In this document: piece after piece, positions 7,710 to 8,131 of the stretch
How positions within the stretch are numbered: the first letter of the stretch is position 1
Layout: each line of letters opens with the position of its first letter
DNA from: Acaryochloris marina S15
GTDB taxonomy: Bacteria > Cyanobacteriota > Cyanobacteriia > Thermosynechococcales > Thermosynechococcaceae
Length of the DNA: 32,000 bases
NCBI RefSeq assembly: GCF_018336915.1
Contig: NZ_CP064923.1
Coordinates: 3,090,001-3,122,000, forward strand
Direction: 5' to 3'
The notes under the pieces: generated by a model
Told to the model about the DNA's origin: nothing
Seen by the model: only the letters and a program-made list of their open reading frames with translations
Databases searched by the model: none
Position numbers and translations under genes: made by a program

Positions 7710-7787
7710 TGGTACTCCCGACAGGAGTTGAACCTGCAAAAACTCTGTCTCTCAAACAGAGGCGTTTACCAATTTCGCCACGGGAGC
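7710..7787 (-). tRNA. tRNA-Leu(GAG), class-I architecture (no long variable arm)
   Basis: Acceptor GCTCCCG/CGGGAGT followed by encoded ACCA; Leu-type D arm TGGCGAAATTGGTAAACGCC; anticodon stem TCTGT/ACAGA with loop TTGAGAG; only 6 nt between the anticodon and T stems; T arm GCAGG-TTCAACT-CCTGT. Confidence 0.7.
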
Positions 7788-7791
7788 ACAA

Positions 7792-7865
7792 TACTCCTGG
7801 TGGGAGTCGAACCCACAACCTCTGGTTTCTAAAACCAGCGCCTCTTCCGGTTGGGCTACAGGAGT
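7792..7865 (-). tRNA. tRNA-Leu(UAG), class-I architecture
   Basis: Perfect acceptor ACTCCTG/CAGGAGT with A73; 3-bp D stem GCC/GGC with an 11-nt loop; anticodon stem CTGGT/ACCAG with loop TTTAGAA; 5-nt variable region; T arm GTGGG-TTCGACT-CCCAC. Confidence 0.7.
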
Positions 7866-7917
7866 ATAAAAGGAATTTAGAGTTAGAAATTCAAAGATGA
7901 GTTCTTTAAATTTCTAG

Positions 7918-7991
7918 TACTCCTGGTGGGAATCGAACCCACAACCTCTAGTTTTTGAGACCAGTGCCTCTTCCAATTGGGCTACAGGAGT
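7918..7991 (-). tRNA. tRNA-Leu(CAA), class-I architecture
   Basis: Paralog of 7792-7865 with the same acceptor and T stem. Anticodon stem CTGGT/ACTAG with loop CTCAAAA; 5-nt variable region. Confidence 0.7.
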
Positions 7992-8057
7992 AAATTGAGA
8001 AATCAGGCAGGCCTGACAGGTTAACGGAAACAAGGGGTGAACTCACCCTATTCCCGA

Positions 8058-8131
8058 TACTCCTGGTGGGAGTCGAACCCACAACAAACTGTGTTTAAGA
8101 CAGTTGCGTCTGCCAATTGCGCCACAGGAGT
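8058..8131 (-). tRNA. tRNA-Leu(UAA), class-I architecture
   Basis: Same acceptor ACTCCTG/CAGGAGT; D arm TGGCGCAATTGGCAGACGCA (GCG/CGC stem, Leu-like); anticodon stem ACTGT/ACAGT with loop CTTAAAC; variable region TTGTT; T arm GTGGG-TTCGACT-CCCAC. Confidence 0.7.

What the first reader, a model, noticed from the sequence alone, without database searches (positions are those of the whole stretch)
7710..8131. Four consecutive Leu-anticodon tRNAs that lack the class II long variable arm and together read all six Leu codons
The genes at 7710-7787 (GAG), 7792-7865 (UAG), 7918-7991 (CAA) and 8058-8131 (UAA) are 74-78 nt long. Only 5-6 nt separate the anticodon and T stems. They nevertheless keep Leu-type D arms: a 3-bp stem with an 11-nt loop, for example TGGCGAAATTGGTAAACGCC and TGGCGCAATTGGCAGACGCA, which resemble E. 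coli tRNA-Leu GUGGCGGAAUUGGUAGACGC. Three are close paralogs with an identical acceptor (ACTCCTG/CAGGAGT), A73 and T arm, differing mainly in the anticodon arm.

Established knowledge: bacterial tRNA-Leu is class II with a long variable arm. LeuRS recognition depends mainly on A73 and D-arm tertiary elements. Class-I Leu tRNAs are otherwise typical of animal mitochondria.

Inference: this is a deliberately diversified, structurally streamlined Leu decoding set. It might escape a nuclease or modification enzyme that recognises the variable arm, or it might be charged differently.
Basis: partly seen in the sequence, partly recalled or inferred. Interest (0 to 1): 0.75.

Follow-up and report, generated by a model that had tools for sequence, protein, structure and literature searches.

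The report
Armless leucine tRNAs in mobile array
Four genuine leucine tRNAs that lack the usual long extra arm sit inside a known stress-inducible tRNA operon of a cyanobacterium, and the same armless leucine tRNA type is common in phages, so the genes are real and unusual in shape but belong to known kinds.

Summary
Observation confirmed. Four tRNAs with Leu anticodons GAG, UAG, CAA and UAA lie on the minus strand at 7710-8131. They are 74-75 nt long (the GAG gene also encodes CCA), have 5-6 nt variable loops and a Leu-type D arm.

They are not a one-off design. The window is a cyanobacterial chromosome closest to Acaryochloris marina. The genes lie in a 22-25-gene tRNA array that matches the published trn operon / L-array: the exact TrcR operator TGTAGTAT occurs three times over the promoter, with an HNH gene upstream. 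The same four short Leu genes occur in A. marina and in the Anabaena PCC 7120 trn operon.

In 79 related loci about 240 of 247 Leu-anticodon tRNAs are short, while Ser and Tyr keep long arms. An anticodon-blind scan of viral contigs gave 118 of 118 Leu anticodons, all with A73. U8, A14, A15, U48 and A73 are invariant in 205 unique sequences, and 19 of 20 helix pairs covary.

Most likely these are functional class I tRNA-Leu charged by host LeuRS, descended from class II Leu by loss of the arm. Bacterial type I tRNA-Leu is already known from Streptomyces coelicolor. Toxin escape is plausible but untested. Charging with another amino acid is unlikely.

The parts
7710..7787 (-). tRNA-Leu(GAG), class I: 75 nt (7787-7713) plus an encoded CCA (7712-7710). 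V loop GUUUUU, G1.U72, A73, A37.
   Evidence: ARAGORN; Rfam tRNA 53.1 bits; parse. D arm 18/19 identical to E. coli leuW. 76/78 identical to the A. marina orthologue.
7792..7865 (-). tRNA-Leu(UAG), class I, 74 nt. V loop AGGUU, A1-U72, A73, A37. No encoded CCA.
   Evidence: (63.9 bits). 72/74 identical to the A. marina orthologue.
7918..7991 (-). tRNA-Leu(CAA), class I, 74 nt. V loop AGGUU, A1-U72, A73. No encoded CCA.
   Evidence: (61.6 bits). 67/74 identical to the A. marina orthologue.
8058..8131 (-). tRNA-Leu(UAA), class I, 74 nt. V loop UUGUU, A1-U72, A73. No encoded CCA.
   Evidence: (60.1 bits). D arm 17/19 identical to E. coli leuW. 74/74 identical to the A. marina orthologue.
3891..9415 (-). 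The whole tRNA array (trn operon / L-array): 22 ARAGORN tRNAs plus 2-3 degenerate ones seen only by Rfam, all on one strand. Order from the promoter: Asp, Glu, Cys, Met, Trp, Glu, Tyr, Ser, Arg, Asn, Gln, Gln, Leu x4, Pro, Lys, [ligase], Met, Thr(truncated), [Macro], Gly, Val(interrupted), Arg, His.
   Evidence: Gene order syntenic with A. marina L022 and other arrays and with Anabaena L080.
9491..9531 (-). Promoter of the array: TTGACA-17 nt-TAGTAT (9519-9491), with three copies of TGTAGTAT (9491-9498, 9502-9509, 9524-9531). Two are in tandem over the -10 box and one is upstream.
   Evidence: Sequence. Only 3 matches in the 32 kb window, all here. Best sigma-70 match in the region. TGTAGTAT is the footprinted TrcR site on the -10 box of the Anabaena trn promoter (PMC10272220). 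The repeat layout is as in PMC8421152.
10064..10582 (-). HNH endonuclease gene upstream of the array.
   Evidence: Pfam HNH/HNH_5, E 9e-15. An HNH gene is conserved upstream of cyanobacterial L-operons (PMC8421152).
5990..7441 (-). ORF embedded in the array encoding an RNA ligase fused to a tRNA-binding domain. The mechanical ORF start overlaps tRNA-Lys (7372-7444), so the true start is probably below 7372.
   Evidence: Pfam RNA_ligase PF09414 and tRNA_bind PF01588; PHROG 548 RNA ligase, E 1e-47.
4583..5098 (-). Macro-domain protein gene embedded in the 3' part of the array.
   Evidence: Pfam Macro PF01661, E 1e-46.

Best explanation
The four genes are functional leucine isoacceptor tRNAs of class I (type I) architecture. 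They descend from ordinary class II tRNA-Leu by loss of the variable stem-loop. They belong to a lineage carried by mobile tRNA gene sets, namely phage tRNA clusters and the horizontally spread cyanobacterial L-array.

In this genome they are part of one polycistronic trn operon. Its promoter is blocked by the repressor TrcR (operator TGTAGTAT over the -10 box) and is opened under translational stress.

Inferred steps:
- After processing, three of the four need CCA addition; the GAG gene encodes CCA.
- The host LeuRS charges them with leucine. Bacterial LeuRS ignores the anticodon and reads A73 plus the tertiary core (U8-A14, A15-U48, G18/G19 with the T loop).
- Together they decode all six Leu codons as a supernumerary, inducible set.
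- Leu could lose the arm while Ser and Tyr in the same arrays could not, because SerRS (and in part bacterial TyrRS) needs the arm for recognition whereas LeuRS does not strictly need it.

Shown here: gene structure, conservation, covariation, identity elements, operon context, and derivation from class II Leu. Shown in the literature for the Anabaena orthologous operon: repression by TrcR, induction under stress, in vivo charging of 23 of its 26 tRNAs, and presence in polysomes. Inferred: that the amino acid is leucine, and that this host's LeuRS accepts them.
For: 1. Real tRNAs under purifying selection.
- Rfam scores of 53-64 bits.
- Against A. marina the four genes are 289/300 identical, while the two long spacers are 39-65% identical with 36 gap columns.
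- In 205 unique 74-nt family members, 19 of 20 helix pairs show double compensatory changes. 98.9% of cells are canonical pairs, against 37-45% when the partner is slid.

2. Leu identity.
- U8, A14, A15, U48 and A73 are invariant in 205/205, and G18/G19 in at least 202/205. This is the published E. coli and Aquifex LeuRS identity set (PMC2377443; PMC6614811).
- There is no G3:U70.

3. The backbone is tied to Leu anticodons only.
- A viral-contig scan with the D arm plus spacing plus T stem, anticodon unspecified, gave 118 cloverleaf-consistent hits. All have Leu anticodons from both codon boxes (UAA 64, UAG 28, CAA 18, GAG 5, CAG 3) and all have A73.
- BLAST of the four genes against 1614 array tRNAs finds full-length matches only to Leu anticodons.
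- This pattern is what an anticodon-blind synthetase predicts.

4. Derivation from class II Leu.
- Alignment with E. coli leuW and leuZ shows colinearity with one clean gap at the variable stem-loop.
- Intermediates exist on the same backbone: Gordonia phage GodonK Leu-UAA (82 nt, true stem-loop) and L052/L005 (83 nt, unpaired U-rich remnant).

5. The variable loop is 5 nt (163 cases) or 6 nt (61 cases) and never shorter. This matches the experimentally determined minimum of 5 nt for leucylation (PMC6614811).

6. A bacterial LeuRS charging a type I tRNA-Leu is demonstrated (PMC6614811).

7. Operon membership.
- Exact TrcR operators and an upstream HNH gene; synteny.
- In Anabaena 23 of 26 operonic tRNAs are charged in vivo and operonic tRNAs are found in polysomes (PMC8421152). 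That operon has the same four short Leu genes, so at least one of them must be among the charged ones.
Against: - The amino acid attached was never determined for any member of this lineage; acid gels show charging, not identity.
- I could not read which three Anabaena genes were the uncharged pseudogenes, because the figure is not held. The Anabaena Leu-GAG copy has a broken T arm.
- Not every bacterial LeuRS accepts a type I tRNA-Leu. E. coli LeuRS and one Streptomyces LeuRS failed on the S. coelicolor tRNA (PMC6614811), and removing the arm lowered affinity for Aquifex LeuRS. This host's LeuRS is not in the window.
- UAG and CAA resemble E. coli Leu in D-arm architecture only, not in D-stem sequence.
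- The CUN readers have A37 instead of the canonical G37, so their decoding fidelity may differ.
- The 98.9% canonical-pair figure is inflated by my parser, which required mostly paired stems. The compensatory changes are not affected by this.
Confidence: 0.75

Rival explanations
1. Adaptive escape, as an addition to the main explanation. The arm was lost, and the loss is kept, because it makes mobile-element Leu tRNAs invisible to host or competitor enzymes that recognise class II tRNAs through the long variable arm. Examples are DUF1814 nucleotidyltransferase toxins of the MenT/AbiEii type. Leucine decoding would then continue when housekeeping class II tRNA-Leu is poisoned.
For: - MenT3 needs the long variable loop: deleting it abolishes efficient modification and grafting it onto tRNA-Met confers it (PMC11541572).
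- MenT3 weakly modifies one tRNA-Leu (PMC7450476).
- The armless type is concentrated in phages and in a stress-induced mobile array, where counter-defence tRNAs are known to occur (PMC10264068, PMC11555353 and PMC11464382, listed).
- RNA-repair-type genes sit inside this array.
Against: - No toxin is known that depends on the variable arm of tRNA-Leu specifically. MenT3 discriminates against Leu by arm orientation.
- The bacterial Schlafen nuclease studied cleaves class I tRNAs, and the eLife phage-tRNA study concerns anticodon loops only.
- In Anabaena, cleavage fragments were seen for some operonic tRNAs and not for their housekeeping counterparts (PMC8421152). That is the opposite of general evasion.
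- 18 viral loci carry both class I and class II Leu.
- A neutral, permissive loss explains the same distribution.
Confidence: 0.18
2. Not translation adaptors: the RNAs act mainly as decoys or sponges for tRNA-directed toxins or other tRNA-binding proteins, or are on the way to becoming pseudogenes.
For: - The authors of PMC8421152 suggest operonic tRNAs may act as sponges for toxin RNases. Deleting the operon did not change bulk protein recovery.
- The 3' part of this window's array does contain decayed tRNA genes. Single family members are visibly decaying: L005 GAA with a damaged T loop, and Anabaena GAG with a broken T arm.
Against: - The strict conservation of aminoacylation determinants (A73, A15-U48) and of a Leu anticodon in every one of 118 + 235 parsed members is not needed for a decoy.
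- The four window genes are intact and under purifying selection.
- Operonic tRNAs in Anabaena are charged and found in polysomes.
Confidence: 0.08
3. Identity switch: the armless Leu-anticodon tRNAs are charged with another amino acid, or ambiguously, and cause regulated mistranslation of Leu codons under stress.
For: - CUN or CUG reassignments by unusual tRNAs exist in yeast mitochondria and in yeasts (PMC7609411).
- Aberrant acid-gel mobility was seen for two other operonic tRNAs, Phe and Ile (PMC8421152).
- E. coli LeuRS rejects one type I tRNA-Leu.
Against: - No identity element of another synthetase is present. There is no G3:U70, no long arm for SerRS or TyrRS, A73 is invariant, and no anticodon matches a synthetase that reads the anticodon.
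- The same body carries anticodons of two unrelated codon boxes, UUR and CUN. That fits only an anticodon-blind enzyme whose amino acid owns both boxes, which is LeuRS.
- No mistranslation was detected in the one case tested in Anabaena.
Confidence: 0.03

Closest known systems
tRNA-Leu genes of the trn operon / L-array of Anabaena (Nostoc) sp. PCC 7120 plasmid delta, and of Acaryochloris marina MBIC11017 (Puerto-Galan & Vioque 2012; PMC8421152; PMC10272220)
   Same: - Same operon type: TrcR operator TGTAGTAT over the -10 box, HNH gene upstream, syntenic gene order.
- Same four anticodons (CAA, UAG, GAG, UAA), all 75-78 nt with 5-6 nt variable loops.
- The A. marina block is in the same order and 91-100% identical per gene.
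   Different: - Here the array is chromosomal, and an RNA-ligase/tRNA-binding gene and a Macro-domain gene are inserted in it.
- Here UAG, CAA and UAA share one acceptor stem and T arm (recent duplication or conversion), whereas the Anabaena paralogues are more diverged.
- The papers I could read do not mention the missing variable arm. I could not read the 2012 paper.
Type I tRNA-Leu(CAA) of Streptomyces coelicolor (Fan et al. 2019, PMC6614811)
   Same: - A bacterial Leu-anticodon tRNA with a 5-nt variable loop that coexists with class II tRNA-Leu and a single LeuRS.
- U8-A14 is important, and 5 nt is the minimum loop length.
- The loop ACAGC resembles the commonest viral loop ACAGU.
   Different: - The Streptomyces gene is a single, essential, chromosomal housekeeping isoacceptor. 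Here there is a full supernumerary set of four on a mobile, normally silent operon.
- Streptomyces has C48, and A73 is not a determinant for ScoLeuRS. This lineage has invariant A15-U48 and A73, the E. coli-type set.
- Whether the two are homologous could not be tested, because no S. coelicolor sequence was available.
Phage-encoded short tRNA-Leu genes, e.g. Vibrio phage KVP40 tRNA-Leu-3, Myxococcus phage Mx1, Gordonia phage GodonK, Mycobacterium prophage prophi86-1
   Same: - Same signature: D arm UAGCCCAAyUGGmAGAGGC, G1.U72 or A1-U72, A73, a 5-nt loop ending in U48, and T arm GUGGGUUCGAAUCCCAC.
- More than 120 IMG/VR contigs carry it.
   Different: - Phage copies are often single or paired rather than a four-anticodon block.
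- Phage CUN readers mostly keep G37 (24/33), whereas array copies mostly have A37 (60/77).
- Some phages carry both classes of Leu.
Canonical bacterial class II tRNA-Leu (E. coli leuW, leuZ)
   Same: A73, U8-A14, A15-U48, G18G19, a 3-bp D stem with an 11-nt loop xAAUUGGxAGA. leuZ also has G1.U72.
   Different: No variable stem-loop: 5-6 nt instead of 13-15 nt. A37 instead of G37 in the CUN readers.
Animal mitochondrial tRNA-Leu (class I)
   Same: Short variable loop, A73, charged by a bacterial-type LeuRS (PMC6614811).
   Different: The genes here keep the full canonical elbow (G18G19, T54-Psi55-C56, A58) and a normal cloverleaf. They are bacterial or phage genes, not organellar.

Membership tests
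tRNA (Rfam RF00005) | Cloverleaf scoring above the curated gathering score (29 bits). | tested here: met
   53.1, 63.9, 61.6 and 60.1 bits. ARAGORN agrees.
Type I (class I) tRNA-Leu | A Leu anticodon with a short variable loop (about 4-5 nt, no stem) between the anticodon and T stems. | tested here: met
   Loops of 6, 5, 5 and 5 nt. A clean gap against the variable stem-loop of E. coli leuW/leuZ.
Type I (class I) tRNA-Leu | Aminoacylated with leucine by LeuRS. | not testable with these tools
   Indirect only:
- The identity set U8, A14, A15, U48, A73 is invariant in 205 sequences.
- The backbone is linked only to Leu anticodons.
- Orthologous Anabaena operon tRNAs are charged in vivo, 23 of 26 (PMC8421152).
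- ScoLeuRS charges a type I tRNA-Leu, but E. coli LeuRS does not charge that tRNA.
Canonical bacterial class II tRNA-Leu | A long variable arm (more than 10 nt) forming a stem-loop. | tested here: not met
   5-6 nt, unpaired. In the same array Ser (88 nt) and Tyr (85 nt) have long arms.
Canonical bacterial class II tRNA-Leu | Leu-type D arm (3-bp stem, 11-nt loop with A14, A15, G18G19, A20a) and A73. | tested here: met
   By sequence, GAG is 18/19 and UAA 17/19 identical to leuW; UAG and CAA match in architecture only, at 12-14/19.
Cyanobacterial L-array / trn operon (PMC8421152; array criterion of PMC4758250) | At least 20 tRNA genes at 2 or more per kb, on one strand. | tested here: met
   22 ARAGORN genes in 5.5 kb (3891-9415), all on the minus strand, plus degenerate copies.
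Cyanobacterial L-array / trn operon | Common ancestry and synteny with the Anabaena, Acaryochloris and Nostoc arrays. | tested here: met
   86.6% identity over 5.2 kb to the A. marina array with the same gene order. The order is shared with other arrays and with Anabaena.
Cyanobacterial L-array / trn operon | Promoter with tandem TrcR operator repeats (TGTAGTAT) overlapping the -10 box; HNH endonuclease gene upstream. | tested here: met
   Three exact copies at 9491-9531, the only ones in 32 kb, over TTGACA-17-TAGTAT. The motif is as footprinted in PMC10272220. HNH ORF at 10064-10582.
Cyanobacterial L-array / trn operon | Silent in standard conditions and induced by translational stress. | not testable with these tools
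   Expression data exist only for Anabaena (PMC8421152, PMC10272220).
Phage genome (the first guess from the tRNA density) | Phage structural and replication genes around the array; similarity to phage records. | tested here: not met
   No megablast hit to 50,697 phage records. The neighbours are PriA, histidine kinases, WecG and DUF4336/DUF6399. The closest relative is the A. marina chromosome.

The most novel reading that the evidence does not exclude
Armless (class I) tRNA-Leu is a hallmark of mobile tRNA gene sets, meaning phage tRNA clusters and the stress-induced L-arrays derived from them. It is maintained because it uncouples leucine decoding from host or rival factors that recognise class II tRNAs by their long arm, such as MenT/AbiEii-type nucleotidyltransferase toxins. 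Leu is the one class II isotype whose synthetase can do without the arm. That would make these genes a structural counter-defence, distinct from the anticodon-loop mutations described so far. It would also imply that most bacterial LeuRS enzymes can charge type I tRNA-Leu, contrary to the view that this ability is a Streptomyces rarity.
Probability: 0.17. Interest if true: 0.75.

Novelty: new member of a known kind. Interest (0 to 1): 0.45.

Why it matters
The genes themselves are orthologues of genes in an operon that has been studied experimentally, and bacterial type I tRNA-Leu is documented. So the window holds no new kind of system.

What seems under-appreciated is the scale. In the data gathered here the armless form is the norm for Leu in cyanobacterial L-arrays and is widespread in phages of at least five bacterial phyla. 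It always carries the E. coli-type LeuRS identity set, and Ser and Tyr alongside it keep their arms. The only paper in the searchable library that uses the term 'type I tRNALeu' treats it as a rare Streptomyces peculiarity and reports that E. coli LeuRS cannot charge it.

This raises two directly testable questions:
- Can ordinary bacterial LeuRS enzymes charge this lineage?
- Does loss of the arm protect against toxins that read class II tRNAs?

It also matters for annotation. Isotype models trained on class II Leu may score these genes poorly.

Tried and rejected
- Phage origin of the window: rejected. No megablast hit, and the context is chromosomal cyanobacterial.
- First viral pattern scan: found nothing because my spacing was one base short. 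Corrected.
- First regex parse of the viral hits: double-counted positions 8-9. Corrected.
- Whole-tRNA identity to E. coli tRNAs as an isotype test: not discriminating, since all tRNAs score 70-85% over the aligned columns. Only the D-arm comparison was informative, and only for GAG and UAA.
- blastn of Leu-UAA against 5,426 E. coli genomes: hit only T-arm fragments on plasmids. I fetched leuW and leuZ by coordinates instead.
- The weak 1:72 pair as a Leu-specific adaptation: rejected. It also occurs in array Glu, Val, Ile and Gln, and E. coli leuZ has G1.U72.
- Bacterial Schlafen nucleases as arm-dependent toxins: not supported, because the enzyme studied cleaves class I tRNAs.
- The eLife 2023 phage-tRNA evasion paper does not treat variable arms.
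- Literature not obtainable: Puerto-Galan & Vioque 2012, Larkin et al. 2002, and the supplements and figures of PMC8421152. I therefore could not learn which three Anabaena operonic genes were uncharged.
- The Leu-backbone tRNA with a Phe anticodon (L005) and the CUA-anticodon genes were considered as possible recoding devices. Both look like decaying copies.
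Full report
OBSERVATION

ARAGORN finds 22 tRNA genes in the window, all on the minus strand between 3891 and 9415. 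Four consecutive ones carry Leu anticodons: GAG at 7710-7787, UAG at 7791-7866, CAA at 7917-7991 and UAA at 8056-8132. The Rfam tRNA model calls the same four at 7713-7787, 7792-7865, 7918-7991 and 8058-8131 with 53-64 bits, against a gathering score of 29.

A cloverleaf parse gives variable loops GUUUUU, AGGUU, AGGUU and UUGUU. All four have a 3-bp D stem with an 11-nt loop, plus U8, A14, A15, G18G19, U48 and A73. The GAG gene is followed by an encoded CCA; the other three are not. UAG, CAA and UAA share the acceptor ACUCCUG/CAGGAGU and nearly the same T arm, at 66/74, 63/70 and 61/70 pairwise identity. Tyr (85 nt) and Ser (88 nt) in the same array have long arms.

WHAT THE LOCUS IS

The tRNA density suggested a phage, but there is no megablast match to 50,697 phage records. 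The neighbouring genes are PriA, two-component kinases, WecG and DUF4336/DUF6399. An exact search for the 5' half of the UAG/CAA genes in one genome per species returned 79 loci, almost all cyanobacterial.

The best match to the array is the Acaryochloris marina MBIC11017 chromosome. It is 86.6% identical over 5.2 kb and has the same order... Gln-CUG, Gln-UUG, Leu-UAA, Leu-CAA, Leu-UAG, Leu-GAG, Pro, Lys.

This is the cyanobacterial 'trn operon' or L-array. It was described for Anabaena PCC 7120, A. marina and others, spreads horizontally, is silent in standard culture, is induced under translational stress, and is repressed by TrcR (PMC8421152; PMC10272220; PMC4758250).

I tested membership directly:
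- The published, footprinted TrcR site on the trn promoter is 5'-TGTAGTAT-3', overlapping the -10 box TAGTAT.
- The window has exactly three copies of that octamer. All lie at 9491-9531 on the minus strand, just upstream of the first tRNA. Two are in tandem 3 nt apart over TTGACA-17-TAGTAT and one is upstream. This is the layout described in PMC8421152.
- An HNH endonuclease gene lies upstream, as in most published arrays.

ARE THE SHORT Leu GENES PECULIAR TO THIS GENOME? No.

- The Anabaena operon (locus L080) has Leu-CAA, UAG, GAG and UAA of 75-78 nt.
- Across the 79 loci plus the window, ARAGORN finds 247 Leu-anticodon tRNAs. About 240 of them are 72-80 nt. Ser is 80-91 nt and Tyr almost always 81-90 nt.
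- Of 235 parsed Leu genes, 231 have A73 and 234 have U48. Nearly all have A14-A15. The variable loop is 5 nt (163) or 6 nt (61) and never shorter, although the parser allowed 3.
- These loci were selected with a class I Leu pattern, so the fraction is biased upward. But each locus carries about three Leu genes, and only one was selected for.

PHAGES

- A sensitive blastn of the four-gene block against phage records hit annotated tRNA-Leu genes of 74-78 nt in Mycobacterium prophages, Gordonia, Rhodococcus and Streptomyces phages, Myxococcus phage Mx1, KVP40-like Vibrio phages, and Agrobacterium and Caulobacter jumbo phages.
- They share the signature of the window's UAG/CAA genes: D arm UAGCCCAAyUGGmAGAGGC, G1.U72 or A1-U72, A73, a 5-nt loop ending in U48, and T arm GUGGGUUCGAAUCCCAC.
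- I then scanned IMG/VR with the D arm, 23-24 free bases and the T stem, leaving the anticodon unspecified.
- Of 121 matches, 118 fold as cloverleaves, representing 100 unique sequences. All 118 have a Leu anticodon (UAA 64, UAG 28, CAA 18, GAG 5, CAG 3) and all have A73.
- In these viral loci 176 of 195 Leu genes are short, while 24 of 25 Ser and 20 of 24 Tyr are long. 18 loci carry both Leu classes.

FUNCTIONAL CONSTRAINT

- Between the window and A. marina the four Leu genes are 74/74, 67/74, 72/74 and 76/78 identical. The two long spacers are 26/66 and 22/34 identical with 36 gap columns.
- In 205 unique 74-nt members (108 from arrays, 97 viral), 19 of 20 helix pairs show double compensatory changes and there are 66 extra pair types. 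98.9% of cells are canonical, against 37-45% with slid partners. The first percentage is inflated by my parse filter; the compensatory changes are not.
- Unpaired positions U8, A14, A15, A20a, U48, T54, T55, C56, A58 and A73 are invariant in 205/205. G18 is present in 204 and G19 in 202.

IDENTITY

The published determinants for E. coli and Aquifex LeuRS are A73 and the tertiary core U8-A14, A15-U48, and G18/G19 with U55/C56. The anticodon is not read (PMC2377443; PMC6614811). All of these are invariant here.

No element of another synthetase is present: no G3:U70, no long arm for SerRS or TyrRS, and no matching anticodon for synthetases that read it. The same body carries anticodons of both the UUR and CUN boxes and, apart from one decaying copy, no others. 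That is what an anticodon-blind LeuRS predicts.

The minimum variable loop compatible with leucylation was measured as 5 nt including nt 48 (PMC6614811). The family never goes below 5.

ORIGIN

Aligned with E. coli leuW and leuZ, fetched from K-12, the short genes are colinear with a single clean gap where the variable stem-loop lies. Over D-arm positions 8-26, GAG is 18/19 and UAA 17/19 identical to leuW. UAG and CAA reach only 12-14/19, so for those two the Leu character rests on architecture and family continuity.

Intermediates exist on the same backbone. GodonK Leu-UAA (82 nt) has a true stem-loop. L052, L020, L058, L005 and L077 copies have 9-12 nt U-rich unpaired regions. The short form therefore derives from class II Leu by loss of the arm, possibly more than once.

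PRIOR KNOWLEDGE

Fan et al. 2019 (PMC6614811) showed that S. coelicolor has a chromosomal type I tRNA-Leu(CAA) charged by its single LeuRS. Human mitochondrial LeuRS and a second Streptomyces LeuRS also charge it. E. coli LeuRS and another Streptomyces LeuRS do not, and the leucine-specific domain decides. They regard bacterial type I tRNA-Leu as rare. It is the only paper in the searchable library that uses that term.

The array papers I could read do not mention the variable arm. A cyanobacterial tRNA survey lists Leu variable loops of 5-18 nt without comment (PMC6933170). I could not read Puerto-Galan & Vioque 2012.

In Anabaena 23 of 26 operonic tRNAs were charged in vivo, and operonic tRNAs were found in polysomes. 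Which three failed is shown only in a figure. The Anabaena GAG copy has a broken T arm and may be one of them. By arithmetic, at least one of the four Leu species is charged.

WHY NO ARM?

Two readings fit.

- Permissive loss. LeuRS can do without the arm, whereas SerRS cannot. So in compact, fast-evolving mobile tRNA sets the arm was lost and the lineage spread.
- Adaptive escape. [quoted passage not shown]

Against escape:
- No toxin that depends on the Leu arm is known.
- The bacterial Schlafen enzyme studied cleaves class I tRNAs.
- In Anabaena it was operonic, not housekeeping, tRNAs that showed cleavage.

I put escape at about 0.18, as an addition to the main explanation.

VERDICT

The genes are functional-looking class I tRNA-Leu isoacceptors inherited as part of a known, TrcR-controlled mobile tRNA operon. 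The 'streamlined Leu set' is a lineage trait shared with many phages, not a local invention. Charging by LeuRS with leucine is strongly indicated but not shown. Novelty: a new member of known kinds (bacterial type I tRNA-Leu; cyanobacterial L-array). The side result, that this architecture is far more common in mobile elements than the literature I could search suggests, is worth following up.

Noticed in passing
window 5990-7441 (-) and 4583-5098 (-): Two protein genes are embedded in the tRNA array: an RNA ligase (PF09414) fused to a tRNA-binding domain (PF01588), and a Macro-domain protein. Together they suggest a tRNA repair or 2'-phosphate/ADP-ribose clean-up function travelling with the array. 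The ligase ORF start overlaps tRNA-Lys, so the true start is further downstream.
   Followed up: partly
window 4141-4432 and 5198-5252 (-): The 3' part of the array is decaying. It holds a truncated Thr-UGU (5198-5252), a Gly-GCC seen only by Rfam (4362-4432), a Val-UAC-like gene with a 54-nt insertion in the T loop (4236-4357), and a doubtful 90-nt ARAGORN 'Ile-UAU' call (4141-4230) that Rfam does not support.
   Followed up: partly
window 8132-8187 (-): The spacer between Gln-UUG and Leu-UAA is 55/56 identical to A. marina, whereas the other long spacers are 39-65% identical. It can form a hairpin GGAGGC...GCCUCC followed by UUUU (dG -16.4 kcal/mol, z -1.9, not significant on its own). It could be a processing or attenuation signal.
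   Followed up: partly
window 7792-7865 and 7713-7787 (-); loci L001-L079: The CUN-reading Leu tRNAs of the arrays have A37 instead of the canonical G37, so there is no m1G37 site. This holds for 60 of 77 unique array sequences, including both window genes. Viral relatives mostly keep G37 (24 of 33).
   Followed up: partly
loci L001-L079 and window: Array tRNAs for Leu, Glu, Val, Ile and Gln have weak 1:72 pairs (G.U or A-U) in 93-100% of cases. Most substrates of class II synthetases (Ala, Asp, Gly, His, Lys, Pro, Ser, Thr) keep G-C or C-G. For Glu and Val this departs from E. coli, which is a statement from my own knowledge.
   Followed up: no
L008, L011, L014, L026, L028, L030, L034, L040, L061, L063, L070 (Nostocales arrays); L025 and L058: Thirteen arrays carry a tRNA-like gene with the amber anticodon CUA. 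Eleven are orthologues of the 71-nt 'Ser-CGA' gene of the Anabaena operon and have a poorly paired acceptor stem, so they are probably pseudogenes. Two (L025, L058) are a different 74-nt gene with a good acceptor stem.
   Followed up: partly
L005 1363-1440 (-): A gene in the Leu-CAA slot, with the Leu backbone, carries anticodon GAA (Phe) and has a damaged T loop (GUACGA). It is probably a decaying copy rather than a recoding tRNA.
   Followed up: yes
window 27460-31264 (-): Two T4 gp19-like tail tube genes and a tail sheath gene lie here, and there may be further genes of the cluster nearby. This is a contractile injection system or prophage remnant unrelated to the tRNA array.
   Followed up: no
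window 21224-23716 (-): An 830-aa protein combines an animal haem peroxidase domain with RTX calcium-binding repeats.
   Followed up: no
L008, L076 (MAG labelled Acetobacteraceae) and L023 (MAG labelled Saprospiraceae): Array fragments with the cyanobacterial class I Leu signature occur in MAGs labelled as non-cyanobacterial. This is either horizontal transfer or a binning error.
   Followed up: no
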